Virus record (IMG/VR): IMGVR_UViG_3300021420_000040
Coordinates: 1-56,181 of that record
Length of the DNA stretch: 56,181 nucleotides
Direction: 5' to 3' (one strand)
Source of the DNA: a virus
Lineage: Duplodnaviria; Caudoviricetes
Shown here: in pieces, positions 3,384 to 56,181 of the stretch
How the letters are laid out: each line of letters begins with the position of its first letter
Numbering within the stretch: the stretch's first letter is position 1
Translations under genes and position numbers: made by a program
Notes under the pieces: generated by a model
Databases searched by the model: none
What the model was told of the DNA's origin: nothing
Seen by the model: the letters and a program-made list of their open reading frames with translations, nothing else

Positions 3384-3496
3384 CGACTGAGGCATGATCC
3401 AAAGGATTGCTGGATTTGCCGCGTGCGGGCAAGTGCGCGTAGACATCGAAAGGCCGCGCGTGCCCGGAAACCGAAGAAAGAGGGAAAAGAGGGTCA

Positions 3497-3715: not shown

Positions 3716-3719
3716 GCCG
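3690..3719 (+). repeat. 30-bp direct repeat, copy 2
   Basis: Identical to 3354-3383. Confidence 0.9.
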
Positions 3720-3905
3720 AAATTTCGAGTCGGTCAGGTTGTAGCCTACCGAATGCCAGATGGGGCATGGGATTATGATCGGATTCTAAGCATTCGCCCT
3801 GCTGCGCCCAAAGAATGGAACGAATCGGCCTATCTTTCTCGTAGTGATTTGCGGTTGGACACGCGGAACCTACGGCTGCTCACAAAACGTGAGGCTGGCC
3901 GGTGA
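3705..3905 (+). CDS. Small SH3/KOW-like protein
   Basis: PKFRVGQVV motif after GGGAG RBS. Confidence 0.6.
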   Translation: MAGKPKFRVGQVVAYRMPDGAWDYDRILSIRPAAPKEWNESAYLSRSDLRLDTRNLRLLTKREAGR

Positions 3906-3951
3906 GCCTCGCCATTCTCGTTTTGCTTGCCGCTGTGACGAAAGGAGCGCG

Positions 3952-4173
3952 ATGACAAACGAAGTCATAGTTAGAGCGACGTACGACTCAAAATCTTCCG
4001 TGCCTCGCATCGGGCAACGAAAGCGAATGCGGGTGAACGGCAAGGTGGAACTGCTCACACTCAACAAAATTGAGGCCGAGCGTCGGCATTGCTATCGAGA
4101 CGACAGCACCGAAACTTACGAGTACGACACCACGGAGACCTGGGCCTCGTATACGAATGTGCCCGGATGGTGA
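3952..4173 (+). CDS. Hypothetical protein
   Basis: AAGGAG RBS then MTNEVIVRA... Confidence 0.6.
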   Translation: MTNEVIVRATYDSKSSVPRIGQRKRMRVNGKVELLTLNKIEAERRHCYRDDSTETYEYDTTETWASYTNVPGW

Positions 4174-5517
4174 TCCGCGCCGCCATCCTCTTGCTCGTTG
4201 AAATTTAGGGCTTGACGCGAGGGCCGAAAGTTGAATATGCTCCGAAACGCCCTTTGCAGGACCTAGCGGCATGGACTTGAATATGGGCCGAGCACTTCGG
4301 TGTTCGGGCCAGTGGAAAGCCGGGGTTGGGTGCCCTATACATCCAACCCCTCTTCCTTATAGGGGGGAAGTTGCAAGTCAGCAACACAATCCTATCGGTC
4401 CTGACGACATCATCGCCGAAAATGAAGGTCGAGCACGTCGCTGTACAGTATCTCGCCACAAAACAAGCGCTCTCCCATCGAGGAGTTCGTCCGGGCAACG
4501 GCGCAGTAGTCGATCTGCGGCTGGGAAGTCAAAAGCCCTTTTCTTTTCTTCCCTTCTACCACTACGTCCCGGTCCAAATCTCACGGCCCTAAAAGCCGCT
4601 TGGTATACGTGCGTGGAGATGCTGAAAGATAAGTGAGAAGGGAAGTGGTTTCTCTTGGTGACGAAATATGAAATAGCGGAGAAGGATGGACTGGTCGGCG
4701 CGAGCATCCCGCTTGGGAAGTGTCGGGTTCGGCCCAGCTATCTGCGATTTTTGGAGCTCCGAGACTCGGCCAGGATCGACAAGCGCATGACTTGGGCGAA
4801 ATTCCAAGAGAAGTATCCCGAGAAAGTGAAGGAGTGGGACGGAAAATGATCGAACGCGTTGGGAACTGGCTTACATTCGTAGTATACAAGCTCGGCTGGA
4901 AGCGTCCGTATCTTCAATGGCGCATTTGGTGGTACCGGGGATGAAGGAAACGCGCATGAACCTTTGCCTCGATTGCCGAAAGCCGATCAGCCGATCAGCC
5001 AAGTGCTGCCCGGAGTGCGCTTACCGGAAACAGTGGGGGAGTCAAGACTTCGAGCCGGTTCCAGTCGAGCCTGCCGACCGGGTTCGGTGGATGATGGAAG
5101 AGATTATTTCGAGGTGCAGCGGAAGTATTTCTTGACTGGATTTCTAGTAGGTGGTAGAAGCACTGCATGCCGAGGGCAGTAATGACAGTTTTCCTGCAAG
5201 AGCAGAAATGCAAGCGCTGCGGGCACAAATGGGCACCAAAGGTACTTCATCCGGTGCGATGCCCAAAATGTACTTCGCCCTATTGGGACAAGGACCGGAA
5301 GTCATGAGACCACGCGCTAGGATGCCCCTAGATGCCTCCAGAACGCGCACGCAGGCCGATTCTAGCGCCTCGACCGACCCAGTACGTGTGGGAGAGCATC
5401 AAGATTTACTCTGCGCTTGCGGTCACAGCCGATTAGAGCACCACGGATGGTCCAAAATAGAGTGCTTACACACCGATCCTAAAACACTTAAGTTCTGCAA
5501 GTGCGAGGATTTTCGGC

Positions 5518-5736: not shown

Positions 5737-6116
5737 TGTCGAACTACATTTCGCTCGAAGATTTGAAGAAGTTGAGTGGTTATGCCATTGGAAAACGCTG
5801 GGTCATATCTGTATTTCCTTTCGATTCAGCAAGGTGCAGAAACTGTGTGACTATGCACAGTGATGGTATCGACTGGTGCAAAGACCCAGATCATGCAGAG
5901 TTTAGAAAGGTGTCGGAGCAGGCGATTGGCAACATCGCGGCAGGCCAACTTCGGCCCTATCTCGAAGCAATTTATTCTCTTCGACTCTTCTACAAGCATC
6001 TATACGCCGACAATCCGCCGGAGATCATGGAGGTTCCGAATGTTCCGAGACAAGGACAAGAAGGTGGCTGCGGAAATAGCTCGGAAGTTGGACTCGCTGT
6101 CTCCCGATCCGACTAA
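5736..6116 (+). CDS. Hypothetical protein
   Basis: GGAGG RBS, TGATG overlap, MSNYISLEDL... Confidence 0.55.
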   Translation: MSNYISLEDLKKLSGYAIGKRWVISVFPFDSARCRNCVTMHSDGIDWCKDPDHAEFRKVSEQAIGNIAAGQLRPYLEAIYSLRLFYKHLYADNPPEIMEVPNVPRQGQEGGCGNSSEVGLAVSRSD

Positions 6117-6351
6117 CCTCGACCCAGTTCTCGGCCCGATCACTCGGGACCTGATCCGAAAGCAGGCCGGGCTTCTCGGCCAAGTGGCTACGCTGAACCG
6201 GGAAATCTCGGAACTCGATGCGGAGATCGCGTGGTTCAAGCGCAACCCCGTGGCCGAGCAGTATTTCCCGAAGGTAGCTGCGATTCTAGATAGTTTGAGG
6301 CCAAAGGTAGCGACTGAAGCAATGGGCGATCAAGATTTAAGGCCGAAATGA
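6040..6351 (+). CDS. Coiled-coil hypothetical protein
   Basis: GGAGG RBS, MFRDKDKKVAAE... Confidence 0.6.
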   Translation: MFRDKDKKVAAEIARKLDSLSPDPTNLDPVLGPITRDLIRKQAGLLGQVATLNREISELDAEIAWFKRNPVAEQYFPKVAAILDSLRPKVATEAMGDQDLRPK

Positions 6352-6668
6352 CGCGCAAGGCTCATCAGGTCGATAGAGATGCCACGGCGACGTCCCGATT
6401 CCAAGACAAGCGCAGCTATGTGCGCACCGATGGCCACGAGTTTTTATTTGGGGAGGATGTTCGGAATCGCCGGCAGGAAATCTATGACCGGGACCTTGGT
6501 ATCTGTCAGGGATGTGGGTTGCGAGTCTCGTACACCGAGTTTCACATGCACCATAAGCAGGGGGGCCTAGTTGGCCGATGCACCTGCATGCATAATCTCG
6601 AAACTCTATGCGCGAAGTGCCATTGGAACGAGCACCCACAAGTAATGAGCGGCAAGATCGGAGAATAG
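6348..6668 (+). CDS. HNH endonuclease
   Basis: RD..CQGCG...HMHH...NLETLCAKCH. Confidence 0.85.
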   Translation: MTRKAHQVDRDATATSRFQDKRSYVRTDGHEFLFGEDVRNRRQEIYDRDLGICQGCGLRVSYTEFHMHHKQGGLVGRCTCMHNLETLCAKCHWNEHPQVMSGKIGE

Positions 6669-6815
6669 CGTGGACGATAACACATTTTGGGTCAAGATTG
6701 TTACCATAGTTATGATAACGGTAATGTTTGTAGCATCCTGCGTTACTTTATATTATATAGAAGACCGCATCGGCCCAGTGCGTCCCATTGTCAGCATGCA
6801 GTATCAGGCCAAGTG

Positions 6816-7145
6816 ATGAAGCAAAAGGCAAGTGAGGCCAGTATCCTGCTGTGGGAGCAACTAAAGGACCTGCATATTGGGTTTATCGAGAAAGAAAAGA
6901 AATTCTGGTACGCCCGAAAATGGGCTTTCGATTTCTCGCTAATTATGCACAGGATGGCGCTAGGAATTGAAATTGAAGGTGGCGCATGGACCCAAGGCCG
7001 GCACACTCGGGGCAAAGGCTTCATCGCCGACATGGAGAAATACAACCATGCTGCCCTTCTCGGCTGGCGCGTACTTCGATTCACTCCTCAGCAGGTTTTG
7101 AAGGGCGAAGCGATAGCGTTTATCCGACGCGTACTCGACGCATGA
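6816..7145 (+). CDS. PD-(D/E)XK nuclease (DUF559/Vsr-like)
   Basis: E.KF..RKWAFDF...IEIEGG.W..GRHTRGKGF..DMEKYN.A...GWRVLRFT. Confidence 0.85.
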   Translation: MKQKASEASILLWEQLKDLHIGFIEKEKKFWYARKWAFDFSLIMHRMALGIEIEGGAWTQGRHTRGKGFIADMEKYNHAALLGWRVLRFTPQQVLKGEAIAFIRRVLDA

Positions 7146-7279
7146 AAGGAGGTGATGCCAAATGAAAACTCCCCTGCGCCGCAGCAGAACTGGGGTTGGT
7201 GCGTTGGCGCGTATTGCTCTATCCCTTGCTTTACAACTGATCCCACTGGCTGCAAAGGCGCAGAATAGCGAGGCCGGGG

Positions 7280-7358
7280 ATGGCGCTAAACCGGAGCCGC
7301 TAAGAGAGCGCCATTTTTTAATGAGGGCGGCACCGACCCCCGCCGAATCCGCCCTCAT
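7280..7358. terminator. Two hairpins at the convergence of the early (+) and late (-) operons
   Basis: atggcgct..agcgccat followed by a T-run; atgagggcgg..ccgccctcat. Confidence 0.55.
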
Positions 7359-7362
7359 CGCT

Positions 7363-7773
7363 TCACGACAACATCAAAGTGACCGTCTCGCCAGCAGCAA
7401 GAGCCGATTCAAACTCTCCCATGAAGGATTCGAAGGCTATCTCACTCTCGCCGATCTCGGCATCATTGATTCGCTTCTCGCCAATCAGGATACATCCGTC
7501 GGTGTCCTGAGGATAGTTGCCGATGTGTAGTTCGATCATCGAGCGCTCCGGCACGTCATTCACGAGCGGCACAAAATAGCCGCGCTTCGGAGAGAGATAC
7601 CTCGTCAGATTGTAAGTGCCAGCGGGAATGCAGCATCGGTCTGGAACATTCGGCTGCCCTTCGAATAGCTCGGGCAGTTCGAGTTCAAAGTACTTCTGCT
7701 CCCCGTCTACCGAGACCACTCCGGTGATAGCGAGGTCGCTTTTCCAGAGGCGAGCGATTGTGACCTGCATCAC
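7363..7773 (-). CDS. DUF5675-like protein, candidate cell-wall hydrolase
   Basis: LELP...CIPAGTY...VPERSMIELHIGNYPQDTDGCILIG. Confidence 0.8.
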   Translation of the reverse strand: MMQVTIARLWKSDLAITGVVSVDGEQKYFELELPELFEGQPNVPDRCCIPAGTYNLTRYLSPKRGYFVPLVNDVPERSMIELHIGNYPQDTDGCILIGEKRINDAEIGESEIAFESFMGEFESALAAGETVTLMLS

Positions 7774-8012
7774 TGCCAGGTGTTACCGCAACTATTGCAA
7801 GCGAACGCGCCTCCGGAGCACACCGTTTGCACACTTTTACATCGCGGGCAGGCTGGAGCAGTGATAAAAGATGGTTTGGGCGCGGATGGACTGGATGGCT
7901 GGACACTTCCGCCCCGAAGTTCGTCCAAAGTGATCTTTTTGCCGTCGAAGGTGACAACAGTGCTGCCCGGAAAGGATTTCGTATTCGCAAGAAGCTGTGA
8001 TTTATTGTCCAC
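7770..8012 (-). CDS. Small protein with C-terminal Zn ribbon
   Basis: AAGGAG RBS; CPRCKSVQTV..GG..ACNSCG. Confidence 0.7.
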   Translation of the reverse strand: MDNKSQLLANTKSFPGSTVVTFDGKKITLDELRGGSVQPSSPSAPKPSFITAPACPRCKSVQTVCSGGAFACNSCGNTWQ

Positions 8013-46064: not shown

Positions 46065-47050
46065 TTGAATGCCCTCTTCGCTTCCTCGGCTGCGGCTTTG
46101 TAGTGGGGCAGGGCTGCCTTCACCGAGAAGTGCTCGTCGGCAATCTCCCGGCTCCGGCGACTGTATTTCTTGGCCCGATCCTGCCGAGAGAAGCACCACT
46201 CCAAGAATCGGCACATGGCATCGAAGTTTTCAGTGCAAAGTCCGTTGGTGTCGATGTAGTTGGCGTAGTTCAATCCCGGAAGATTCCGAGCCATTACCGG
46301 CATGCCGGCGGCAAGCGCTTCGGTAAAAGAAGTGCAAAGGGGCCGAGCATCCCCTCGGTCGAGATTCACGAATACCCGATACTCGCTGAACATTTCGGCC
46401 ATCTGCTTTCCGGTCTTGAATTCGTTGGCTCCGTCATGGTGGTACATCTTACCCGGGAACTTCTCGGATAGTTTTTCGAACAGGTCAACGCCGCAAGCAT
46501 CCTTCGGACGCCACAGGTCCTTGCCGGCGAGCACGAACAAAGCTGCTTCCTTTGAGCCGGTCCAGGGATTTTGGAACCACCAGTCTCCGACAGGAATGGG
46601 AGCAACTTCTGATTGCGGATATTCGGCTCGCCACGCCGGAAGCGCCGCCGGCATGCCGAGGAGGATCGGCAGATTCTTGATCTTCTCTCGATAGTTCGGA
46701 GGGAGATAGCCGGGATGATCGAACCAACAGACGAACACGATGGTCGGGCATTCGATCCGGTGACAATGGTTCTTCCAGTCGGCGGCGTAATTGAATGTCT
46801 CGACCGATTCGATTAGCAGGTCGAACTTCGAGAAGTCGCATTCACTGTAGGGCTTTTGCTCGAAGGTGATGTCGAGGCCAAGTTCTTTCCATTCGGCTTG
46901 GCGGTCGATAGCACTGGCGAGAGGAAGGATTCTAGGGTCCCAAGTAGATAATTCGTCGCAAGGCGGACCAATCACAGTGAGGCCGGGAAAGATCGAGGCT
47001 AATTTCTCGATCAAAGCAGAGACGCATGGATAGAGGAGCGCAGTCTTCAT
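46061..47050 (-). CDS. GT-B (GT4-like) glycosyltransferase
   Basis: YRVFVN...SFTEALAAGMPV...NG...REIA.EHFS. Confidence 0.8.
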   Translation of the reverse strand: MKTALLYPCVSALIEKLASIFPGLTVIGPPCDELSTWDPRILPLASAIDRQAEWKELGLDITFEQKPYSECDFSKFDLLIESVETFNYAADWKNHCHRIECPTIVFVCWFDHPGYLPPNYREKIKNLPILLGMPAALPAWRAEYPQSEVAPIPVGDWWFQNPWTGSKEAALFVLAGKDLWRPKDACGVDLFEKLSEKFPGKMYHHDGANEFKTGKQMAEMFSEYRVFVNLDRGDARPLCTSFTEALAAGMPVMARNLPGLNYANYIDTNGLCTENFDAMCRFLEWCFSRQDRAKKYSRRSREIADEHFSVKAALPHYKAAAEEAKRAFK

Positions 47051-48408
47051 TAACGGTTCACTGGACGAAGCGAAATATTGTCGGTGATCCATTCATGAAG
47101 GAACTTCCGGGCTTCATGTAATTCCGCCCGCGTCATCGTAGGAATATCCAGTGTGCAGGTGTCCGGGTTCTCGGGGTCAAGTTCCCACATATCAGAGAAG
47201 TTACTTGATGTAATTGTAACACCGAACTTCTCCGGCGCGTTCCAGACCTCGCATCCTGGAAATGGCTGAAAGGTGTGTAGACTGGCGGCGTCGGGGCGTG
47301 CCTTTTCGAGCCAGTCCCGCATTTCGTAAATGGATTCCCAAGTCTCTCCGGGAAATCCTACGAGCAGGTACGCCCTGGTAGCAATACCGGCATCCCTACA
47401 AGTTTTAACGCCTCTCTCGTTGGCCTCGGGCGTGGTGCCCTTGTTCATCGCCTTCAGCATTCGGGCCGACCCGTGCTCGACTCCGAATCCAAGTTCCGTG
47501 CAGCCGAGCCTAGCCAAATCACGGAATAGTTCCGGGTCGAACAGGTTCACCCGGCTCCAACCCCGCCACAGCATCCCGTAGTCATGAAACAGAGACGCTA
47601 GTTCTCGGCATCGCTTGGCTTTGATGGTAAGTACGTCGTCCCAGACTCGGAGGGCAGTAACTCCGAGTTCGGCAAGGGCTTTGACTTCCGCCTCGATTTG
47701 CGCGAAGGTTTCTTCTCGGAGCTTGGTTCGGGCGTCGGCGCAGAAGGAGCATCCGTAGGGACATCCTCGGGCGGTCCAGAGGGAACCGATGGTTCGTTCT
47801 GCGACATCAATGGACTTTCCATGTATGGAAGCAATTTGTAGTCCTCCTGTCGAGTAATTCTGCCACAGGTCATAGGCCGGCAGCTTCATCTTCGTCACAT
47901 CGGGCAGTGGTGGTGATGGAAGGTGCTGCATCCCGAATGGATTGAACCAAGTAATGCCGGGAATCTTGGTCAGGTCGGAGCCGGCATCGAAGGCGTTACA
48001 GAACTGGACGAACGATTCTTCGCACTCTCCGGTCATCAGGAAGTCGAAGCCTTCGAAATACTTCTTCTGCTTGAACTGGGCGTGCGGCCCTTCGATGATG
48101 TAAGTCACATGAGGACCGCCGGCGACTTTTACCTTTGCCGGCCAGAGCGCTGCCAGTTGCCCGCCGAACTCGGCATTCGGAGTGACAATCGAGACGCCTA
48201 GGATGTCGCAGGGTTCGAGCAGGTCGGGATCGACGCGCAGCTTGTTTGCCTCTGCATCAAAGGTGCTTAGTTTGTGGCAGTCTACAATTTTTACCGAATG
48301 ACCGGCCTCGCGGACCGCCGAAGCGAGGTACAAAATTCCAAGAGAAGCGTGCAGGCTCGGATTGAACAAAGAAAATGACGGTCCTCCGGTCAGAATGACT
48401 TTAGCCAT
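47050..48408 (-). CDS. B12-binding radical SAM enzyme (class B methyltransferase-like)
   Basis: LGILYLAS, AGGPHVT, RGCPYGCSFC, GVEHGS..MLKAMNKG, LVGFPGET. Confidence 0.92.
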   Translation of the reverse strand: MAKVILTGGPSFSLFNPSLHASLGILYLASAVREAGHSVKIVDCHKLSTFDAEANKLRVDPDLLEPCDILGVSIVTPNAEFGGQLAALWPAKVKVAGGPHVTYIIEGPHAQFKQKKYFEGFDFLMTGECEESFVQFCNAFDAGSDLTKIPGITWFNPFGMQHLPSPPLPDVTKMKLPAYDLWQNYSTGGLQIASIHGKSIDVAERTIGSLWTARGCPYGCSFCADARTKLREETFAQIEAEVKALAELGVTALRVWDDVLTIKAKRCRELASLFHDYGMLWRGWSRVNLFDPELFRDLARLGCTELGFGVEHGSARMLKAMNKGTTPEANERGVKTCRDAGIATRAYLLVGFPGETWESIYEMRDWLEKARPDAASLHTFQPFPGCEVWNAPEKFGVTITSSNFSDMWELDPENPDTCTLDIPTMTRAELHEARKFLHEWITDNISLRPVNR

Positions 48409-48586
48409 GCGCCCTCCGACGAGCTACTAGTGCTCCCGTTGCCGGCGTGGGGTCAAGCCTAGAGGCAGAAGTTATCGTCGGCGTTTTCAGGAGCACTAAT
48501 AGATCGTCGAACGAGTCGGCGCGCACATAGTCATTGTCACTGATGAAGACCCAGCGCGACTTGAACCGATAGATTTTAGCCTTCAC
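48401..48586 (-). CDS. Hypothetical protein
   Basis: Fills the gap between coupled genes. Confidence 0.45.
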   Translation of the reverse strand: MKAKIYRFKSRWVFISDNDYVRADSFDDLLVLLKTPTITSASRLDPTPATGALVARRRAHG

Positions 48587-49338
48587 GCTTTAACTGCCTT
48601 CACGAGAATGTGATGGCCGAGATAGCGCTCGAACCACTCTTCGGGGATGATGTTCCAAGGGAAGGCTTTCCGATAACGGTGCTGCCGATATTTCTTAATT
48701 CGCCACGGGAAGATGTGGCGCTTCTCGATGCTGGTTACCCGGAATCCCGAAGACTCGACCAAGCGCTTCGCCTCCCGCATAGAATACCACCGAACGAGCG
48801 GACAACCGGCACTCGCTTCGGGCTGCCGACGGAATAGGTGCTTGAGAGAGTATTTGGCGTAGAGCATGATCCGAAGCTCGCCCGAATGCTTCAGATATTT
48901 ATGCGCGTTCTGCAAAACGGTTTCGGGATGCGGTGTGTGGTGCAGGACTCCGAAAGAATAAACCAGGTCAAAGGGAACAGCCGATTGTTCCTGCTCCAAC
49001 TCTCCATTGGAGTAAGCCAAGAAGAATTGTGCGTTCCCGAGGCGGCCAATTAGCTCCCGTCTTGTCCTAGCCAACCGAATGCTCTCCATGGAAGCGTCGG
49101 TGCCAACGACCATAGCGCCAGCACGAGCAAACTCAATAGCGTCTGTCCCGATGCCACAACCAATCTCCAGAACGTACTTCCCTCTCCATCTCGGGAAGTC
49201 GGCGAACTCCCGGATATGCGGCTGCACGAAATAGCGCTGGGCCGAAATCTGCTGACTCCACCACATCGAGCCGACGGGAGCGGTGCCGTGCCACGCCTCG
49301 CAGGGAGCCTTGTCCCAGAAGTCAGCTATCTCACTCAT
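48583..49338 (-). CDS. Class I SAM-dependent methyltransferase
   Basis: VLEIGCGIG, FDLVYSFGVLHHTP. Confidence 0.9.
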   Translation of the reverse strand: MSEIADFWDKAPCEAWHGTAPVGSMWWSQQISAQRYFVQPHIREFADFPRWRGKYVLEIGCGIGTDAIEFARAGAMVVGTDASMESIRLARTRRELIGRLGNAQFFLAYSNGELEQEQSAVPFDLVYSFGVLHHTPHPETVLQNAHKYLKHSGELRIMLYAKYSLKHLFRRQPEASAGCPLVRWYSMREAKRLVESSGFRVTSIEKRHIFPWRIKKYRQHRYRKAFPWNIIPEEWFERYLGHHILVKAVKA

Positions 49339-50125
49339 CGGAGACCATTCTGTTGATCTTGTCGGCAGCTTCGGAGAGATGGGCCTTGATGCCGGAACGC
49401 GCGGCAACAAACTGGAAGTTGCGATTGTCGCGGGGAAGGCACGGACCCGAATAGGGCCATCCGGGAGTGAGGTAGGCATTGCCGATGCGCGGGTCCGTGC
49501 CGACGGCCTCCATGATCTTTTTCGAACTTGCTCCCAGTTTCTCGGCCACGAGGTGCAACTGATTGGCGAGAGAAATCTTCATGGTCAGGGCGCAATTGAG
49601 GGTGATCTTGGCCAGTTCGGCTTCGAGGAGCGACATACGCTTGACCGGAACCTGGGCAATAAGGCTGTAGATGATCTCAGCGCGGTCACCCGCAGCCTTA
49701 CACCCCTCTCCGATCAGAATGAAGGCCGGATCGAGCAAATCCCGATCCACAAACTCTAATCGAATGAATTCGGGCTTGTAGACGATGTTATCCCCGACGA
49801 TCTGCCGAAACTCGTCGCAGCTTCCCGGCGTGGTGGTCGAAGTCACGATGTAGAGGTAGTCCTTTCGGTTATGGAGCCGAACGGCATCTCGGAACTGGGT
49901 TAGGGCGTCAACGAGATGGGCATTCGAGAAGGAGCCATCGGGGAGCGAGGGCGTCTGCACGATGAAGATGCAGGCGTCGGACTGATCTACCGCTTGGCTG
50001 ATCGAGACTTCCGAGACCGCCGGCACATGGTCATAGCCGACGGCCCGGAAGCCCTTTTGCCGAAGCATAGCGAGGATCGGCCTGCCGACCTTGCCGAGTC
50101 CGCACACGCAGAGGCGTTCACTCAT
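49331..50125 (-). CDS. UDP-glucose/GDP-mannose dehydrogenase family, C-terminally short
   Basis: GLGKVG, VQTP, STTTPG, PEFI, AELAK, DPRIG, GPCLPRD. Confidence 0.88.
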   Translation of the reverse strand: MSERLCVCGLGKVGRPILAMLRQKGFRAVGYDHVPAVSEVSISQAVDQSDACIFIVQTPSLPDGSFSNAHLVDALTQFRDAVRLHNRKDYLYIVTSTTTPGSCDEFRQIVGDNIVYKPEFIRLEFVDRDLLDPAFILIGEGCKAAGDRAEIIYSLIAQVPVKRMSLLEAELAKITLNCALTMKISLANQLHLVAEKLGASSKKIMEAVGTDPRIGNAYLTPGWPYSGPCLPRDNRNFQFVAARSGIKAHLSEAADKINRMVSDE

Positions 50126-50748: not shown

Positions 50749-51068
50749 CGCCATCCTCCACAATTGCACCCCGTTTCCGTACAACACCCAAGCGTTCCCC
50801 GGTGGGCGGATTTACCGTGCCTACAGTACGAACACCGGGTTGCCGCCAAAGGCTTATCGGGCACAGACTCCCGTCCCTCATCACTACGAACCTTTCGGTC
50901 CCGAGACACGTACGGTACTCGATGATGTATTTCAACGCCTTCCTTCGGGCCGGCTGCACTCAGCTTCTCCACCGCAAGCTCTTTCAGCGTCACGCCCCGT
51001 TCAACCGCTTCCGTCTTTAACCGCTTCAGAAGCTCGGGGTCTACATCTCGGATATTCAAATCTGGCAT
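50745..51068 (-). CDS. Ribbon-helix-helix regulator with Cys/His tail
   Basis: LNIRDVDPELLKRLKTEA..RGVTL; CSYCRH...H...C...CNC. Confidence 0.75.
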   Translation of the reverse strand: MPDLNIRDVDPELLKRLKTEAVERGVTLKELAVEKLSAAGPKEGVEIHHRVPYVSRDRKVRSDEGRESVPDKPLAATRCSYCRHGKSAHRGTLGCCTETGCNCGGWR

Positions 51069-51118
51069 GCTGTGTACTCTGTCACAGGTGTTACAGGCGT
51101 GTCAAGGGGAATGTGACA
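51069..51118 (-). promoter_or_regulatory. Promoter with TGTNACA operator-like boxes
   Basis: TTGACA on the minus strand; tgtcaca, tgttaca and tgtgaca boxes directly upstream of the RHH gene. Confidence 0.55.
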
Positions 51119-51491
51119 TCGGAAGTAACTAAGCTGCTTTGTTTAAGACCCGCCCCACAGAATTGAGGTAGGCCCGGTGGATGTCAGTGCGCCCGGAGTC
51201 GCCTGAGAGAACCCTGGCTCGCCGTTTCGCCGATGGGTCCCCGTCTTTCTTCGAAGTAAACGCATTAGAACATTATCAGACACGAACGCGCAAACCTTTC
51301 ATCGTCAATGCGTTGAGAGTGAGCTAGCTTTCGTCCCGTTGCCTTTCTCGCTCCGTGCGCGTCTTTCACTCACATCCCGAGCCCGTTTCGTGCTACGTTT
51401 CCGTTCCTCCGTGTCGAAGCGCCTCGATACCCGACTTCTAAAACCATACTTTCGCACTGAAAAGAAAAGAGTTCCGCGCTGGCCTAAACGA

Positions 51492-51734
51492 ATGCACGCC
51501 AGCCGCCGCAATCTCGTTCTCATCTTGCTTGCTCCCGATCGCGCTACGCTCCGTGGCCTTGCTCATCGCACTGGAATGAGTGTTTCCGGGCTCTGGAAGG
51601 TCCTCCGTGGCAAGGCAAAGCCGTCTTTGCGCTCTGCAAGGCTTATTGCGCGTGCATTGGGGGTTTCCACCGATACGTTCGTCGATGTTCTAGAAGCGTA
51701 TGTCTGGCCGAAGACGGAAAAGCCTATCGAATGA
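51492..51734 (+). CDS. XRE-family HTH regulator
   Basis: TLRGLAHRTGMSVSGLWKVLRGKAKPSL..ARLIARALGVS. Confidence 0.8.
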   Translation: MHASRRNLVLILLAPDRATLRGLAHRTGMSVSGLWKVLRGKAKPSLRSARLIARALGVSTDTFVDVLEAYVWPKTEKPIE

Positions 51735-51751
51735 GTTGCATCCGATAGGCT
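51721..51751. terminator. Hairpin between convergent genes
   Basis: agcctatcg...cgataggct. Confidence 0.5.
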
Positions 51752-51861
51752 TATTCCGAAGTGTCGAAGTGTGAGTGAGTTAGCGTCTATCGTCGGATTG
51801 CAATCGAAGAACGAGACCGATTACTCCGACGTAGAGAGTCAAAAGCCATGCCATGAACATG

Positions 51862-52347
51862 TTAGTTGACCGTTTCCTTTCCGCGCTTCGGCGATAGAAG
51901 CGCCGTTATTAGCGCGTCTATGCCGATTGATTCCTTGAGCGTATCGTCAAGACCGGGATCGTCTTTGTACGAATCGAGATTGCGCTTTGCTTGTGCTTCG
52001 TCAATCCCAGGGTCAATCTCCCGCGCTATGTCCCATGCTTCTGATTCGCTGGCAATTACCGCTTCTGCCGGTTTTTCTGTCCACTTGTTCCCACGAGGTT
52101 TTGACCGAGGGTCCGCAAGCCAAGCCTCTGTCCCTGCAAGACTTCCGACCACATGTCCCAGTTCATGCGCGAGACTTGTGCGGAGTGAAAGTGGCGTGTT
52201 TTCTGCCAGTTCATCCGGCACTATCTCCAATCGGAACATCATTACTGGGATTCCATCTGGCATTTCGAATTGCTCGTGCTGTGTGACCGACGCCGTAGGC
52301 TTTGCTTCGGGGTCAATCTCCACGAAAATAACTGCTCTTTTCTTCAT
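51862..52347 (-). CDS. HExxH metallopeptidase-like protein (ImmA/IrrE-like)
   Basis: LAHELGHV...E.EAW. Confidence 0.7.
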   Translation of the reverse strand: MKKRAVIFVEIDPEAKPTASVTQHEQFEMPDGIPVMMFRLEIVPDELAENTPLSLRTSLAHELGHVVGSLAGTEAWLADPRSKPRGNKWTEKPAEAVIASESEAWDIAREIDPGIDEAQAKRNLDSYKDDPGLDDTLKESIGIDALITALLSPKRGKETVN

Positions 52348-52422
52348 CGGTTTAATCTCCTCTGTGTGACGCGTTGAGCGCGTCCGCCGGGCATCCATTT
52401 CGGGATACCCGGAAGTGTGCTC

Positions 52423-52635
52423 TTACGTATCGAGCGGGTCCGCCATTGTATCGGCGAGCGCGTATCCGAGTGCCTCTGCAACCCTTTCCATTGCAAGGCT
52501 AAACGGCACGAGCTCGCCCGTAAAAACCATCACCGCAAAAACCGCTCCAAGCGCGGCTAAAACAATCACTGCGCGGACAGTGAAAGCCTTAACCCGACGC
52601 ATGCAGCGCTTCCCGCATTCAATGGCGCGCTTCAT
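52423..52635 (-). CDS. Small membrane protein
   Basis: ATGA overlap; one TM helix. Confidence 0.5.
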   Translation of the reverse strand: MKRAIECGKRCMRRVKAFTVRAVIVLAALGAVFAVMVFTGELVPFSLAMERVAEALGYALADTMADPLDT

Positions 52636-52850
52636 CCCTCGGTTATCCCATCCGAAGAACGCACGTCCATCTGTGCCGAAAAATACGGGCAAGATTGACC
52701 CGCGAATCCTCCGTAAGTGTTTGTCTGCCATTCCGATAACCGAGGCGCAAGGTAGGCCGCGTACCATGCGCTCCAGTCTTCCGCCGGCATGCCGGAAGCC
52801 TTATGCTCTTTCTCGCAATCCTCAAGCAACCGCTTCAACAGTTGAACCAT
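52632..52850 (-). CDS. Hypothetical protein
   Basis: GAGGAG RBS; DWSAWYAAYL. Confidence 0.6.
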   Translation of the reverse strand: MVQLLKRLLEDCEKEHKASGMPAEDWSAWYAAYLAPRLSEWQTNTYGGFAGQSCPYFSAQMDVRSSDGITEG

Positions 52851-53226
52851 TCGCGTTACTCCTCTCTGTGTTTGTCCACTTGCTGGTAATCTGTGCTCCG
52901 TTTGATCCGAGAATGCAGCATTCGACTAACTGAACCTCGATACCCTCCGAAAGTAGAGTTTGGGCAAGCTCTTTCGCGGCTGTTAATGCCATCAATTCGC
53001 AAGAGATAGCATCCCATTCCGGAGCCTTGTGTCCGAAACGGTTATCGAAGTAGTTTTGCACCCGTTCATTGTTGAATAGGAAACCCTCTGGACTCAGGCG
53101 CGTGTCCAGCGCTTCGATTCGAACAAAGTACGGGTAGACTTTCGTGGCCATGGCTGCACACTTGTGCGCGTTTGGCTTCATGGTCGAAGCCTTGAAATGC
53201 CCGCTGCGACTAAGACTCAGAAGCAT
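52822..53226 (-). CDS. Divergent QueD/PTPS-like T-fold protein (tentative)
   Basis: F.AS...H.C...Y...V.I...L...GFL......SCE.MA...L...V pattern parallels QueD, but HGH is missing. Confidence 0.45.
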   Translation of the reverse strand: MLLSLSRSGHFKASTMKPNAHKCAAMATKVYPYFVRIEALDTRLSPEGFLFNNERVQNYFDNRFGHKAPEWDAISCELMALTAAKELAQTLLSEGIEVQLVECCILGSNGAQITSKWTNTERSNANGSTVEAVA

Positions 53227-53428
53227 GCACGAAACCTCCCTCAATCAACTGTTTGGCCATCCGCCCATAGGACCCTTGCAGACTCCACGCTAGTCCGGAA
53301 TCTACAAGGTGCTGGAAGAGTTCGATTGTTTCAGGTCCGGAGAGTTCTCCATTTTCATAGGCGATAATCTGGCCTACGGTATCGAACGGTTTCGGTTGCC
53401 ACGTTCCGACGGGTTTGGCTTTCATCAT
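53210..53428 (-). CDS. Small conserved-looking phage early protein
   Basis: IIAYENGEL...LFQHLVDSGLAWSLQGSYGR. Confidence 0.7.
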   Translation of the reverse strand: MMKAKPVGTWQPKPFDTVGQIIAYENGELSGPETIELFQHLVDSGLAWSLQGSYGRMAKQLIEGGFVHASES

Positions 53429-53670
53429 TCCCCCATCAATTCGTCGGAATTGGGATACCCGTCTTCGCACATTGCCTCATCGGGGTTATCATCCGCCCCA
53501 CATGCGTCTTTGCCTTCGAACGAGACACGCAATCCCTGCCGGATGGCGTCCTGATATTCGCGTTCCGGGTAGATGGGTACTTCTCCCGGACCATGAAACA
53601 AACTCGAATTCAGGAAGTTTTTCCCTGCCGAAGTAATGGTTCTGTTGTGCGTAAAGTGTAGATCGAACAT
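53425..53670 (-). CDS. Hypothetical protein, first gene of the leftward early operon
   Basis: GAGGAG RBS behind a promoter. Confidence 0.65.
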   Translation of the reverse strand: MFDLHFTHNRTITSAGKNFLNSSLFHGPGEVPIYPEREYQDAIRQGLRVSFEGKDACGADDNPDEAMCEDGYPNSDELMGE

Positions 53671-53725
53671 AGGTTTTTAATCTCCTCTGTGTTGAGATTG
53701 CGCGGATTCTTTCCCGCGTGCGGAT

Positions 53726-53754
53726 AAGATGCGCCAAGTCGTGAAAAGTGTCAA
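53726..53754 (-). promoter_or_regulatory. Leftward early promoter
   Basis: TTGACA-17-CATCTT. Confidence 0.65.
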
Positions 53755-53840
53755 ATGTTTTTTGTGCCTTGTGTAACTACTTGTGCAATGAAATTATTAC
53801 CGCGTCAAAATAGCCACGGTAAGAATTACACACTTCCCAC

Positions 53841-53869
53841 TTGACAGGTGACTGTGTATAAATTACACT
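53841..53869 (+). promoter_or_regulatory. Rightward early promoter with overlapping palindrome
   Basis: TTGACA-17-TACACT; GTGTA-N5-TACAC overlaps the -10. Confidence 0.75.
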
Positions 53870-53875
53870 GTCCCC

Positions 53876-53940
53876 GTTGTTAGTTGCTCCTCTGTGTAGG
53901 AAGCGCGAAGTTCAAGACTCGGGACGGGCTTCGCGCTTCC
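53876..53940 (+). ncRNA. Candidate antisense/leader RNA with anti-RBS seed and 12-bp hairpin
   Basis: CTCCTCTGTGT at 53887-53897; stem 53899-53910 with 53929-53940. Confidence 0.5.
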
Positions 53941-54067
53941 GAAATTCCCAAGGAAACGTGCAGTGCACGAGGAGTCTATGGAAATCGGTAGCCAAAAATG
54001 CAGGATGATTTTTCAGTTTCGGAAATCCAAAATCGCGGCCCGAAATTGAAATTCGAGAAATAGCCTA

Positions 54068-54511
54068 ATGCCGCAAATTGCTCGACCATGCCGGAAGAGC
54101 GAAAAAGGGAGAATCACGAAAATGAAAGTTGGAAGATATCCGAAGTTTCTGAAGCCAGGTGAGCCGACACCGTCGCAGGCTAAATTTGTCTGCAAGACGT
54201 GTAATCAATGGTTTGCTTCGACGACTGGAAAGAATGGACATTTACTTCGGGAGCCGGGCCACGTCCTAGTCAGCCCACACACAGGCAGAGAGTTCACTAA
54301 AGCTGGGTCGATTGGCCGACCGCTCCGAAAGGGCGACGTGCCTTCCAATGGCCATCAAGTGCTCGATGCCACTGCCCGAGACTTGCTCCTCGACTACATC
54401 CTCGGGAAAGCCAAAGAGGAACTGAACGCCGAATTGGAACGCATGTTCCGGGAACTCAAGAGCCAACCCATTCCAGCGAAAGGGCCACGTAGAACTTACG
54501 TGGCAAGGTAA
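54068..54511 (+). CDS. C2H2-type zinc finger protein
   Basis: FVCKTCNQWF.S..GKNGHL....H. Confidence 0.6.
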   Translation: MPQIARPCRKSEKGRITKMKVGRYPKFLKPGEPTPSQAKFVCKTCNQWFASTTGKNGHLLREPGHVLVSPHTGREFTKAGSIGRPLRKGDVPSNGHQVLDATARDLLLDYILGKAKEELNAELERMFRELKSQPIPAKGPRRTYVAR

Positions 54512-54517
54512 CCTCCG

Positions 54518-54976
54518 ATGCCCAGCAAACTGAACCAGTTCCCGCACTCACTCGCCATTGTCCGAAAATACTTCCCGAAAGTGAAGGAAGTCGAGGAAGC
54601 CGAAAAACCGATTACCGTCGAGGTCACCGCGCAAGATTCCAAGTCCTCCGCTGTTCGCAACCATGACTCTTGCGCTATGGCGGTTGCCTGCAAGCGCAAA
54701 GCGCATGCCGATGGAGTGATTGTATCCATCGGAATCGCTTACATCATCAAGGGAGAAGTGGCCACCCGCTATGCCGTACCACCGGCGATTCAGCGGGAGA
54801 TCGTTTCCTTTGACCGCGAAGCCGGCTTTGCTCCCGGAGAATATAAACTGAATCCGATGAGACCAAGCAAGCGGCTCGGGGAAACAAGACCACGCACCCA
54901 TACCGTCACTGGCAAGAAACAGCCGCCGCCCCATTTAACTTCCGGCATTCGGACGGTGCTTGGATCGAAGGAATAG
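54518..54976 (+). CDS. Hypothetical protein
   Basis: 152 aa ORF with coding-like codon use. Confidence 0.65.
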   Translation: MPSKLNQFPHSLAIVRKYFPKVKEVEEAEKPITVEVTAQDSKSSAVRNHDSCAMAVACKRKAHADGVIVSIGIAYIIKGEVATRYAVPPAIQREIVSFDREAGFAPGEYKLNPMRPSKRLGETRPRTHTVTGKKQPPPHLTSGIRTVLGSKE

Positions 54977-54991
54977 CTAGGGAGGCCGACT

Positions 54992-55216
54992 GTGGACGAT
55001 GCCGAATACAGAGCCAGAATCGAAGTGTGGAAGAGGGTCTGCAAGGAACCGCTGTTCCAATTCCTGAAGCACGACCCGACTGGGCGTACCATCATGTGCC
55101 TATTCGGGGAGGGGCAGATCAGCTTGGGCAAGGCCGCCGAGGCTATTACCGAAAAATTCTGCCTCGGCCTAGAGCCTACATTGCCGGAATGGAAGGGGTA
55201 TGATGCCCAAACCTAA
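54992..55216 (+). CDS. Hypothetical protein
   Basis: GGGAGG RBS. Confidence 0.6.
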   Translation: MDDAEYRARIEVWKRVCKEPLFQFLKHDPTGRTIMCLFGEGQISLGKAAEAITEKFCLGLEPTLPEWKGYDAQT

Positions 55217-55469
55217 GACTGTCAAACTCGCAAGCGACATCCCGCGCCCGAAACTGAGTGGGGTGGTCGGCAAGTCGAAGGAATGGGCCTCGATTGTCCG
55301 GATGATGAAGGCCGGCGGCAAGATCGAGGTCCGTATCCCTGCCGATGGCTTCGACGGCCTCAAACAGCCGATGAGGGCCTTCCTTGCGGCTATGAAGCGC
55401 AAGTATCGGAAAACGTACCACGTCTATGCTGTGAAAGGCGTGATCTATGCCGTGCCGAGGCCGAAATGA
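55203..55469 (+). CDS. Basic hypothetical protein
   Basis: Coupled ORF, Lys-rich. Confidence 0.6.
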   Translation: MPKPKTVKLASDIPRPKLSGVVGKSKEWASIVRMMKAGGKIEVRIPADGFDGLKQPMRAFLAAMKRKYRKTYHVYAVKGVIYAVPRPK

Positions 55470-55663
55470 ACAGCGAGGAAAATCTGATGTATCGGGCAGG
55501 ACTCGATGAGGATGCGCCGCCGTGTCGCCAGTGTCGGCACGCAGCACATGCTTTCGAGATATGCGGGATCGACAGGTGTGCCTGCTCGAAATATGAGCCG
55601 CTGAACGTCGAAGACATACTGGACCACGAAGGGAGAATACTCAATGAAGGGAATAGCCGATGA
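55466..55663 (+). CDS. Small Cys/His protein, paralog of 616..819
   Basis: CRQCRHAAH...RCAC..EPL..EDILDHEGRI. Confidence 0.75.
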   Translation: MNSEENLMYRAGLDEDAPPCRQCRHAAHAFEICGIDRCACSKYEPLNVEDILDHEGRILNEGNSR

Positions 55664-56181
55664 CCGTCTTTTACAAGATTTTCACGCATGACTTTTGCTC
55701 TCCGATTCAGGGAGGGAAGCCGATCTGGGATGGCTCGCTGCCGTTCAAGTTGCCCACCGTAGAACTCGACACCGGACCTGCTGAGTGCGCGCCAGGATGG
55801 AACTTTGTCGATGAGTTGAGCAAAGGATTTCAGATTGCCGGAATGTGGCCGACTGGCCGACCCTCGCAGGTTGCGATTGTTGAGCCATCAAAAGATGCTA
55901 TTCAGCGGGGCGATAAATGGCGATCTTCGGGCGGAACGATAAAACGCTTTGCCCGAGAATCCGAGATTGCCAAAGGTGTACAGAAGTTCTCCGAAGTATT
56001 TCGAACCCACGCTCCCGAAATGGCAAACGAACAGATCGCTTGGAGGTATGCGCTTGGCCGACCTGAATGTAATGAAAAAGCCGTCGTGGAAGCATTGGAA
56101 AAGGCTTTGGCCGCTCGCGGCGTCGCTTGGAAAGTCAAAAGCTGCAAAGATGCGTGGGCTGCGTGGGATGCGCGGGCTGCG
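55660..56181 (+). CDS. 5' part of junction-spanning protein with DAW/DAR repeats (continues at 1..360)
   Basis: ATG at 55660 overlaps the upstream stop; open frame MTVFYKIFTHDFCSPIQGG... reads to the end and joins the 40..360 frame through the terminal repeat. Confidence 0.8.
   Translation, partial: MTVFYKIFTHDFCSPIQGGKPIWDGSLPFKLPTVELDTGPAECAPGWNFVDELSKGFQIAGMWPTGRPSQVAIVEPSKDAIQRGDKWRSSGGTIKRFARESEIAKGVQKFSEVFRTHAPEMANEQIAWRYALGRPECNEKAVVEALEKALAARGVAWKVKSCKDAWAAWDARAA
56047..56181. repeat. Terminal direct repeat (circular overlap), right copy
   Basis: tatgcgcttggccgacc... matches the window start for 126 bp. Confidence 0.95.

What the first reader, a model, noticed from the sequence alone, without database searches (positions are those of the whole stretch)
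52351..53975. Candidate RNA-RNA switch: rightward leader RNA is antisense to the shared RBS of three leftward early genes
Seen: the rightward promoter (TTGACA-17-TACACT, 53841-53869) would start a transcript whose 5' end carries CUCCUCUGUGU (53887-53897), followed by a 12-bp GC hairpin. Leftward mRNAs carry the exact complement ACACAGAGGAG as their RBS at 53682-53692 and 52357-52367; both extend to ACACAGAGGAGATTAAA and both follow a small hairpin. A 2-nt-bulged version lies at 52859-52871. The same seed can also pair in cis with GCACGAGGAG (53965-53974), the RBS of the first rightward mini-ORF (53978-54049). Known analogy: P1 c4 and P4 CI immunity RNAs. Inference: a multi-target antisense RNA that silences the leftward operon, while leftward mRNA could free the rightward RBS, giving a mutual RNA toggle between divergent operons.
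Basis: partly seen in the sequence, partly recalled or inferred. Interest (0 to 1): 0.82.

Follow-up and report, generated by a model that had tools for sequence, protein, structure and literature searches.

The report
Anti-ribosome-site leader RNA in soil phages
A group of related soil phages keeps, at the very start of the rightward early transcript, a short sequence that is the exact complement of the ribosome-binding sites of the leftward early genes and that changes together with them, which suggests that one operon's RNA throttles the other's translation, although no transcript has been observed yet.

Summary
CTCCTCTGTGT occurs exactly 3 times in the 56,181-bp phage genome, all on the + strand within 1.5 kb. 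Two copies are the ribosome sites of leftward genes L1 and L6, a bulged copy serves L4, and the third lies 17 nt after the -10 of a TTGACA-17-TACACT rightward promoter, just before a 15-bp hairpin.

New here: the layout promoter, CTCCT seed, long hairpin recurs in 13 of 29 non-redundant related contigs, covering 7 deep lineages. CTCCT is the only invariant block. The hairpin keeps its structure but not its sequence, and it folds better in the rightward sense in 10 of 13.

The variable bases beside CTCCT follow each phage's own leftward ribosome sites. Leaders reading CTCCTC go with CTCCTCTGTG sites, and leaders reading CTCCTA go with CTCCTATGT sites (39 of 48 sites agree at base 6).

In the window, L1, L6 and L4 rank 1 to 3 of 97 start sites for pairing with the seed. 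Pairing with own leftward start sites is stronger than any downstream cis site in 13 of 13.

No RNA data exist, there is no U-tract terminator, and the cis partner and mini-ORF are confined to close relatives. Verdict: a plausible, untested trans-acting anti-ribosome-site leader, a new variant of phage antisense control. The proposed toggle is unsupported.

The parts
53841..53869 (+). Rightward early promoter PR: TTGACA, 17 nt, TACACT. A GTGTA-N5-TACAC palindrome (53854-53868) overlaps the -10.
   Evidence: 10 of 12 matches. The best-scoring promoter-like pair has a perfect TTGACA -35 with a 17-nt spacer in 9 of 13 related leaders, and variants (TAGACA, TTGCCA) in most of the rest.
53876..53898 (+). 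Predicted single-stranded 5' end of the PR transcript, carrying the seed UUGCUCCUCUGUGUA (core 11-mer 53887-53897). The start near 53876 is inferred as about 7 nt after the -10.
   Evidence: The seed is unpaired in the fold of the first 70 nt. CTCCT is the only invariant block in 13 leaders.
53899..53940 (+). Leader hairpin with 15 pairs (12 Watson-Crick pairs, a further G-C pair at the base, and two G-U pairs and a C-G pair at the loop end) and a 12-nt loop. No U-tract follows.
   Evidence: Equivalent hairpins of unrelated sequence occur in 13 of 13 leaders, with z from -2.1 to -5.9. They are more stable in the + sense in 10 of 13, with 40 versus 24 G-U pairs.
53961..53980 (+). Possible cis partner of the seed (GCACGAGGAG, 53965-53974) and the start codon (53978) of a 23-codon mini-ORF (53978-54049).
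   Evidence: Minimum-energy fold of the 115-nt leader. Conserved only in L026, with a weaker version in L027.
53726..53754 (-). Leftward early promoter PL: TTGACA (53754-53749), 17 nt, CATCTT (53731-53726).
   Evidence: Inferred from conservation of GTGAAAAGTGTCAA and of TTGACA-17-[CT]ATCT[AT] in relatives. It was not listed by the consensus scan.
53671..53722 (-). L1 5' untranslated region: a 5' hairpin, then ACACAGAGGAG (complement of 53682-53692), which is target 1. The Shine-Dalgarno sits in a small stem (AAUCUC with GAGAUU) and ACACAGAG in its loop.
   Evidence: Duplex with the seed is -20.7 kcal/mol, rank 1 of 97 start sites.
53425..53670 (-). L1, an 81-aa protein with no known family.
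52851..52871 (-). L4 ribosome site ACACAGAGAGGAG (complement of 52859-52871), which is target 3. It pairs with the seed with a 2-nt bulge.
   Evidence: Duplex -20.0 kcal/mol, rank 3 of 97.
52423..52850 (-). L4 (52632-52850, 72 aa) and L5 (52423-52635, 70 aa, one hydrophobic helix), coupled through an ATGA overlap.
52348..52413 (-). Intergenic module before L6: two hairpins (52388-52413 and 52368-52384), then ACACAGAGGAG (complement of 52357-52367), which is target 2.
   Evidence: z = -3.71. Duplex -20.5 kcal/mol, rank 2 of 97.
51862..52347 (-). L6, a 161-aa protein with an HELGH motif and no family match.
52822..53431 (-). L2 (53210-53431, DUF7417) and L3 (52822-53229). Both have ribosome sites of their own that do not match the seed.
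   Evidence: Duplex ranks 49 and 58 of 97.
54122..54511 (+). R1, the first sizeable rightward gene (129 aa, with a CxxC...H motif), 246 nt from the predicted transcript start.

Best explanation
The first 25 nt or so of the rightward early (PR) transcript form an anti-ribosome-site seed, UUGCUCCUCUGUGU. The seed is held single-stranded next to a stable hairpin. It base-pairs in trans with the translation-initiation regions of the divergently transcribed leftward early operon, at L1, L4 and L6. These are the three leftward start sites that carry the extended motif; those of L1 and L6 directly follow intergenic hairpins.

Pairing covers the Shine-Dalgarno GGAG plus 7 nt upstream. It would therefore keep 30S subunits off these mRNAs and lower expression of the leftward genes whenever PR is active.

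The seed is probably part of the PR mRNA leader rather than a separately terminated small RNA. The two promoters lie about 90 bp apart, so the nascent RNAs are made side by side.

Shown: the sequences, their uniqueness in the genome, conservation of the layout, co-variation of seed and targets, and the strand bias of the hairpin.

Inferred: the transcript start, the pairing in vivo, and its effect and direction.
For: 1. The 11-mer occurs 3 times, all in the same orientation, and nowhere else in the genome.

2. Paired with the 15-nt seed, L1, L6 and L4 give -20.7, -20.5 and -20.0 kcal/mol. They rank 1 to 3 of 97 predicted start sites; the median is -9.6.

3. Of 29 non-redundant related sequence groups, 13 carry promoter, seed and hairpin. 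The seed starts 7 to 19 nt after the -10 in 12 of the 13; no convincing promoter was called in L020. They fall in 7 deep lineages whose L3 proteins are about 57-67% identical to the window's.

4. In a MAFFT alignment of the 13 leaders only CTCCT and two further columns are invariant. Promoter spacers and hairpin sequences differ completely, so the seed is under selection.

5. Co-variation: leaders reading CTCCTC go with leftward sites reading CTCCTC (13 of 14), and leaders reading CTCCTA go with CTCCTA sites (26 of 34). That is 39 of 48 in total. The longest exact complementarity of a leader to leftward start sites is 8-11 nt within its own flavour group and 4.5-6.3 nt between the C group and the A1 or A2 groups.

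6. The complementary tract slides around the Shine-Dalgarno core between lineages. It lies on the 5' side in the C and A1 groups. In A2 it covers the spacer side, with up to 18 nt (TAGTTGGTTTGCTCCTAT) shared between the L022 leader and the start site of the L1 homologue in L020. That fits selection for a duplex better than for a fixed protein site.

7. The flavour is local, not genome-wide. In L016, CTCCTATG occurs 5 times in 20.7 kb, all within 5750-7826.

8. The hairpin is an RNA feature of the rightward strand. It is more stable in the + sense in 10 of 13, with 40 versus 24 G-U pairs. Close relatives show compensatory changes (WIN versus L026; L022 versus L056; sequences).

9. The best duplex with an own leftward start site beats the best site in the 330 nt downstream in 13 of 13.

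10. The two relatives with a divergent promoter region but no leader (L023, L025) also lack CTCCT[C/A]TG-type leftward sites.
Against: - There is no transcript evidence at all. No RNA run holds the region.
- The hairpin has no U-tract, so no discrete small RNA is predicted.
- All copies are direct repeats in the DNA. Common descent of a ribosome-site-plus-hairpin cassette, or gene conversion (the phage encodes an ERF recombinase), could also keep them alike.
- The L3 tree is a star, so the C-to-A switch may be a single event. The 39 of 48 count is therefore not a count of independent events.
- In the A3 leaders (L019, L020) complementarity is only about 7-8 nt.
- In L022 and L056, 3 of 6 and 2 of 4 CTCCT-type sites carry the other base.
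- L023 has two copies of a different extended ribosome-site motif without any leader. Repeated site contexts therefore arise in these operons without a partner.
- In 3 of 13 contigs the hairpin is more stable in the minus sense.
- My gene calls are a crude Shine-Dalgarno-based heuristic, and at least one site in the count (L016 CTCCTAACAGT) comes from a doubtful start.
- The biological logic is unknown, because none of the leftward proteins has a known function.
Confidence: 0.45

Rival explanations
1. Shared cassette with a cis function. The leader copy descends from a duplicated leftward 'ribosome site plus hairpin' cassette. It now serves only the rightward mRNA itself, as a 5' stability or processing element, or as an anti-Shine-Dalgarno that closes a stem with a downstream GGAG. 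Its likeness to the leftward sites reflects common origin, linkage and recombination, not RNA-RNA contact.
For: All copies are direct repeats in the DNA, and each is followed on the + strand by a hairpin. In the A2 and A3 lineages the likeness extends through the Shine-Dalgarno-to-start spacer, as a duplicated start region would. In the window, L026 and L027 the seed pairs in cis with a GGAG-containing site just after the hairpin, at -13.6 to -15.8 kcal/mol. The phage encodes an ERF recombinase. L023 shows that repeated site contexts exist without a leader.
Against: A cis partner near the hairpin is absent in 10 of 13 leaders, and the cis site is always weaker than the trans sites. Identity between leader and leftward sites stops sharply after 11-18 nt. 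The adjacent hairpins are unrelated in sequence, so there is no sign of recent conversion tracts. A purely cis element has no need to track the leftward flavour.
Confidence: 0.25
2. DNA-level site. CTCCT[C/A]TGTG is the binding site of a phage or host DNA-binding protein, placed behind PR and at several points of the leftward operon, for example as a roadblock or pause site.
For: The orientation is the same at all sites, whatever the direction of transcription. The flavour is lineage-specific, as operator-repressor pairs are.
Against: Every leftward copy sits 3-12 nt from a start codon and contains the Shine-Dalgarno, which points to RNA-level use. The conserved tract shifts relative to the CTCC core between lineages. 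No palindrome or paired half-sites are present. The clear palindromes of the region lie elsewhere (53854-53868).
Confidence: 0.1
3. No function. The 53887 copy is the relic of the ribosome site of a lost leftward gene, and the extended leftward motif is only a translational enhancer context.
For: No open reading frame follows the copy in the leftward sense in any lineage. Upstream enhancers of ribosome sites are known, for example for T7 gene 10 (PMC8748333, abstract seen in the listing).
Against: The copy is kept in 7 deep lineages at a fixed distance from a conserved promoter, while the flanks are unalignable. It also tracks the leftward flavour.
Confidence: 0.08

Closest known systems
c4 antisense RNA of phages P1 and P7
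   Same: A short phage RNA whose exposed complementary stretches bind the ribosome-binding region of a phage mRNA and block translation. Sequence differences between P1 and P7 define heteroimmunity (passages of PMC12197685). The flavour groups seen here (C, A1, A2/A3) would be an analogous specificity code.
   Different: From recall, c4 is processed from the same transcript that carries its target (icd-ant). Here the targets lie on the divergent operon and there are three or more of them. There is no match to any Rfam family, c4 included.
CI immunity RNA of satellite phage P4 (recalled, no paper read)
   Same: A regulatory RNA taken from the leader of an early operon, acting through short complementary sequences that occur several times.
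   Different: From recall, P4 CI pairs with sites in transcripts from its own promoter and causes premature termination. Here the sites are ribosome sites of the opposite operon.
sar RNA of P22 and OOP RNA of lambda
   Same: Phage antisense RNAs that lower expression of a regulatory gene. sar pairs with the ant mRNA and interferes with translation initiation (PMC12197685).
   Different: Both are encoded opposite their target and are fully complementary to it. Here the seed is encoded 195 bp to 1.5 kb from its targets and shares only 11-18 nt with them.
Leader- or UTR-borne anti-Shine-Dalgarno regulators: rnTrpL of Sinorhizobium, the icaR 3' UTR of Staphylococcus, and C-rich-seed small RNAs such as RsaE/RoxS (the last recalled)
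   Same: A pyrimidine-rich stretch in a leader or UTR pairs with a G-rich Shine-Dalgarno, and a leader RNA acts in trans (abstracts of PMC6614838 and PMC3868564 in the listing).
   Different: Those are cellular regulators. None links two divergent phage operons or shows a lineage-specific extension of the seed.

Membership tests
c4 antisense RNA (P1/P7) | Sequence and structure match to the curated RNA family | tested here: not met
   Rfam 15: 0 matches at gathering score in the whole window. At E up to 10 in 51300-54600 there were only 2 unrelated weak matches.
c4 antisense RNA (P1/P7) | Complementary stretches that cover the ribosome-binding region of a phage mRNA | tested here: met
   11-nt exact complement to the L1 and L6 sites and a bulged complement to L4. 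These rank 1 to 3 of 97.
c4 antisense RNA (P1/P7) | Regulator and target lie on the same transcript, with the regulator released by processing (feature recalled) | tested here: not met
   The targets are on the opposite strand, downstream of a separate promoter.
cis-encoded antisense RNA (sar, OOP type) | Transcribed from the strand opposite its target, overlapping it | tested here: not met
   The seed at 53887 does not overlap L1 (ends at 53670), L4 or L6. PL and PR are back to back and do not overlap.
free-standing trans-acting small RNA | Own promoter plus an intrinsic terminator (hairpin followed by a U-tract) | tested here: not met
   A promoter is present. The terminator scan lists nothing at 53899-53940, and none of the 13 hairpins is followed by a T-run.
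free-standing trans-acting small RNA | Accessible seed conserved across relatives, with conserved targets | tested here: met
   The seed is unpaired or in a small loop in the folds. Conservation and co-variation are shown.
translational attenuator (cis anti-Shine-Dalgarno) | Conserved pairing of the leader with the ribosome site of the next gene downstream | tested here: not met
   This is seen only in the window, L026 and (more weakly) L027. In 10 of 13 there is no site near the hairpin, and the cis site is weaker than the trans sites in 13 of 13.
nut-type antitermination site (boxA plus boxB) | The same element, in the sense of transcription, behind both early promoters, plus an N-like protein (features recalled) | tested here: inconclusive
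   The leftward 5' region has a hairpin, but in the sense of transcription it carries the complement of the rightward motif, not the same motif. No N-like protein was sought.

The most novel reading that the evidence does not exclude
These soil phages use the 5' end of their rightward early mRNA as a multi-target mimic of the ribosome's anti-Shine-Dalgarno tail, carrying an added specificity code. The leader seed and three to six leftward ribosome sites co-evolve as a set. This gives distinct RNA specificity groups (C, A1, A2/A3) that could set the order of early gene expression and, between co-infecting relatives, act as an RNA-based compatibility or immunity code, as c4 does for P1 and P7.
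Probability: 0.35. Interest if true: 0.78.

Novelty: new variant of a known kind. Interest (0 to 1): 0.62.

Why it matters
Antisense control of phage early genes is known from a handful of enterobacterial model phages. Here a conserved, co-varying seed-and-target set is found in uncultured soil phages, in an arrangement not described for those models: the leader of one early operon is complementary to several ribosome sites of the divergent operon.

If it works as proposed, it adds an RNA layer to the classical divergent-promoter switch. It also offers a natural example of a multi-target anti-Shine-Dalgarno regulator with an evolvable specificity code, and it gives a simple rule for finding such regulators in metagenomic phages: a leader copy of the phage's own ribosome-site motif in the same DNA orientation.

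It is directly testable with two-plasmid reporters and compensatory mutations. No host is needed.

Tried and rejected
- blastn of 51000-56181 against the phage records found no match.
- The 17-mer TTTAATCTCCTCTGTGT in IMG/VR gave 6 contigs with one copy each. None showed similarity to the region in the BLAST, so I treated them as chance.
- Relatives sought with R1 gave none. With L1 there were only four 18-residue matches, which I did not use.
- Of the three ERF-based loci, only L016 was syntenic in the region.
- A scan of genome contigs with the L3 alignment found no prophage relative, so the host is unknown.
- The R2 alignment (A3) gave 56 further viral loci. A strict scan found the leader only in the 5 contigs already known. 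The six distant loci I inspected have a different gene order. The remaining new loci were not inspected by eye.
- Of the 29 non-redundant groups from the L3 searches, 14 could not be judged. Either the contig ends before the promoter region or I could not place the region (for example L024, L054, L048).
- MAFFT with RNAalifold on the 13 leaders gave no consensus structure, because the stems do not align by sequence. I therefore built no covariance model and give per-sequence folds instead.
- Sequencing runs: no RNA holder was listed, only six soil DNA runs.
- Pfam and PHROGs gave no family for L1, L3, L4, L5, L6 or R1. An ImmA-like reading of L6 (HELGH motif) got no support.
- A leftward open reading frame after the 53887 copy was rejected: there is no start codon at a usable distance in any lineage.
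- Reading the hairpin as an intrinsic terminator was rejected, because no T-run follows it.
- A junction-spanning reading frame made by joining the window's ends had no homologue in six relatives. The join was wrong in any case, because the ends overlap by 135 bp.
- Supplementary files of papers were not consulted. None bears on the claims.
- A statement that this arrangement is not in print rests only on the searches and on the passages read.
Full report
**What the window is.** The window is a complete IMG/VR virus record of 56,181 bp. Its first 135 bases recur at 56047-56181 with 2 mismatches, so the genome is terminally redundant or circular and the window start is arbitrary. It encodes a P22/SU10-like portal and an ERF recombinase among others. 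The finding lies in a divergent early control region. Six small leftward genes (L1 53670-53425, L2, L3, L4, L5 and L6 52347-51862) face a rightward operon (R1 54122-54511, R2 54518-54976, and so on) that runs across the window end to ERF at 644-1603. Only L2 (DUF7417) and an HTH_3 gene further left (51339-51734) have family matches.

**The observation.**
- The promoter TTGACA-17-TACACT (53841-53869) is the best promoter-like site in the last 6 kb.
- CTCCTCTGTGT occurs exactly three times, all on the + strand (52357, 53682, 53887), and nowhere else.
- With one mismatch allowed there are 5 matches, against 0.81 expected, and no shuffle of 100 reached 5.
- The copies at 53682 and 52357 lie 11 and 9 nt from the starts of L1 and L6 and extend to a shared 17-mer. 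The bulged copy at 52859 serves L4.
- The third copy starts 17 nt after the -10 and is followed at once by a hairpin of 15 pairs. Two of these are G-U pairs that exist only in the rightward RNA.
- The flavour is local. Most of the phage's genes are also leftward, yet no other + strand CTCCT (44 in all) continues with CTG.

**Relatives.** No cultured phage or prophage resembles the region. L3 has a small metagenomic family of 16 proteins. Its alignment recovered 9 viral and 31 metagenome loci, and together with L016 and the window these make 29 non-redundant groups.

In 13 of the groups I found the same layout:
- a sigma-70-type promoter, whose best-scoring hexamer pair has a perfect TTGACA -35 and a 17-nt spacer in 9 of them;
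- the motif (T)TGCTCCT[C/A], which starts 7-19 nt after the called -10 in 12 of them (no convincing promoter was called in L020);
- directly afterwards a long GC-rich hairpin.

Two groups (L023, L025) have a divergent promoter region without the element. The other 14 could not be judged. By the L3 tree the 13 fall into 7 deep, unresolved lineages. A second search with R2 added 56 loci but no further instance.

**What is conserved.**
- A sequence alignment of the 13 leaders has only CTCCT and two further columns invariant. Promoter spacers, the bases before the motif and the hairpins differ.
- All 13 hairpins are far more stable than shuffles, with z from -2.1 to -5.9, yet they have unrelated sequences in different lineages.
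- Close pairs show compensatory changes. WIN versus L026 has A-U to G-C and A-U to G-U changes. L022 versus L056 has a base pair deleted on both arms (sequences).
- Folded as the rightward RNA, the hairpin region is more stable in 10 of 13 and holds 40 G-U pairs, against 24 in the opposite sense.
- The promoter, the strand and the seed-plus-hairpin design therefore look selected. No hairpin is followed by a T-run. In L021 the first rightward gene starts about 20 nt after it. The element is therefore best read as the 5' leader of the rightward mRNA, not as a terminated small RNA.

**Co-variation.** The bases next to CTCCT differ between lineages and follow the phage's own leftward ribosome sites.
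- Five contigs have CTCCTCTGT in the leader, and 13 of their 14 CTCCT-type leftward sites continue with C.
- Eight contigs have CTCCTA in the leader, and 26 of their 34 such sites continue with A.
- The longest exact complementarity between a leader and the three best leftward start sites is 8-11 nt within a flavour group. It is 4.5-6.3 nt between the C group and the A1 or A2 groups.
- In L016 the leader and the start site of the L1 homologue share 14 nt (CTCCTATGTGGGAG).
- In the A2 and A3 group the shared tract lies on the other side of the Shine-Dalgarno. It runs through the spacer almost to the start codon, with up to 18 nt shared between the L022 leader and the start site of the L1 homologue in L020.
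- In L016 the 8-mer CTCCTATG occurs 5 times in 20.7 kb, all in the leftward operon and the leader.
- The two relatives without a leader also lack this site flavour.

**Limits of the co-variation.**
- The tree does not resolve how often the flavour changed, so one ancient switch maintained afterwards is possible.
- Counts of sites are not independent events.
- The A3 leaders match their targets over only 7-8 nt.
- L022 and L056 carry a mixture of both flavours.
- My gene calls are heuristic.

**Cis or trans.**
- In the window the first 70 nt fold with the seed free. With 115 nt the minimum-energy fold pairs the seed with GCACGAGGAG (53965-53974) in front of a 23-codon mini-ORF.
- This partner and the mini-ORF recur in L026, a close relative, with a weaker GGGAGC site in L027. 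The other 10 leaders have no comparable site near the hairpin.
- In all 13 the best duplex with an own leftward start site is stronger than the best site anywhere in the next 330 nt, for example -23.4 against -15.8 kcal/mol in the window.
- In the window the seed's three best partners among 97 predicted start sites are L1, L6 and L4, at -20.7, -20.5 and -20.0 kcal/mol against a median of -9.6.
- In the L1 leader the Shine-Dalgarno lies in a small stem with ACACAGAG in its loop, which is a plausible entry point for pairing.

**Interpretation.** The simplest reading that accounts for four facts is RNA-RNA pairing between the 5' end of the rightward early transcript and the leftward start sites, masking their Shine-Dalgarno sequences. 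The four facts are a conserved CUCCU-containing 5' end on the rightward RNA, its selection in that strand, an extended ribosome-site motif confined to the leftward early operon, and the two changing together. I give this 0.45.

- The main rival (0.25) is that the leader copy is a duplicated ribosome-site-plus-hairpin cassette with a purely cis role. On that view the likeness is kept by descent and recombination. The direct-repeat orientation, the spacer homology in A2/A3 and the phage's ERF recombinase speak for it. The sharp 11-18-nt limits of identity, the unrelated neighbouring hairpins and the lack of a conserved cis partner speak against it.
- A DNA-binding site (0.10) fits poorly, because every leftward copy sits at a fixed short distance from a start codon and the tract slides around the CTCC core.
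- A functionless relic (0.08) is contradicted by the conservation.

**Comparison with known systems.** It works like the c4 RNA of P1 and P7, in that short exposed complements block a ribosome site and sequence variants define specificity (PMC12197685, passages). From recall, it also resembles the P4 CI RNA, which is leader-derived with repeated short targets. It is not a member of either. There is no Rfam match, and the targets are on the divergent operon rather than on its own transcript. It is not a cis-encoded antisense RNA of the sar or OOP kind, because there is no overlap. It lacks the terminator of a free-standing small RNA. Among cellular systems the nearest are leader- or UTR-borne anti-Shine-Dalgarno stretches acting on other RNAs (rnTrpL and icaR, abstracts only). 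My three literature searches turned up no description of a phage leader complementary to several ribosome sites of the opposite early operon. That is a limited search, not proof of absence.

**Verdict.** The element is conserved and co-varies with its proposed targets in a family of uncultured soil phages. I rate it a new variant of a known kind, with interest 0.62.

Noticed in passing
window 1-135 and 56047-56181: The first 135 bases are repeated at the end of the record with 2 mismatches. The genome is therefore terminally redundant or circular, although the collection labels it 'linear'. The reading frame that starts at 55660 continues in frame from position 1.
   Followed up: partly
L026 3912-4373 (+ in the locus); also L019, L020, L041 between PL and PR: Four relatives carry an extra leftward gene of 142-153 aa, inserted between the two early promoters together with a different PR promoter. 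By eye it has a D...(D/E)VK motif like PD-(D/E)xK nucleases. Pfam gives nothing. In L026 the mosaic joint lies just upstream of the seed.
   Followed up: partly
window 53854-53868, 53825-53833, 53779-53793: There are likely operators. The palindrome GTGTA-N5-TACAC overlaps the -10 of PR, and ATTACAC recurs. The 15-mer ACTTGTGCAATGAAA between PL and PR is identical in the window, L016, L026 and L027.
   Followed up: no
window 52368-52413; L016 5225-5290, 6925-6980, 7296-7345: Leftward genes are separated by structured repeats, with two nested or adjacent hairpins placed just before the ribosome site. In L016 three copies share sequence (GCGTTCCGGGA...CCCGCAAAGCA). They resemble the processing sites between T7 early genes (recalled).
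   Followed up: no
window about 53993-54030; L019, L020, L022, L041, L056 downstream of the leader hairpin: An A/T-rich block (CAAAAATGCAGGATGATTTTTCAG in the window, CAAAAAATCCGGGTGAATTTTCGA in five relatives) is conserved between the hairpin and the first rightward gene across lineages whose hairpins differ. It is either a second leader element or a protein site.
   Followed up: no
window 47050-48408, 48583-49479, 49331-50125: The phage carries a radical SAM protein with a B12-binding domain, a class I methyltransferase and a UDP-glucose/GDP-mannose dehydrogenase-like gene next to each other. These may be a DNA or surface modification module.
   Followed up: no
L048 (oriented copy) 1800-4250; L054 8300-9150: More distant relatives have other repeated extended ribosome-site flavours in the leftward operon: CCTCCATTGA about five times in L048, and CCCTCCCGTACCGTAGCCAC about three times in L054. 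Their rightward promoter regions are not on the contigs or could not be placed.
   Followed up: partly
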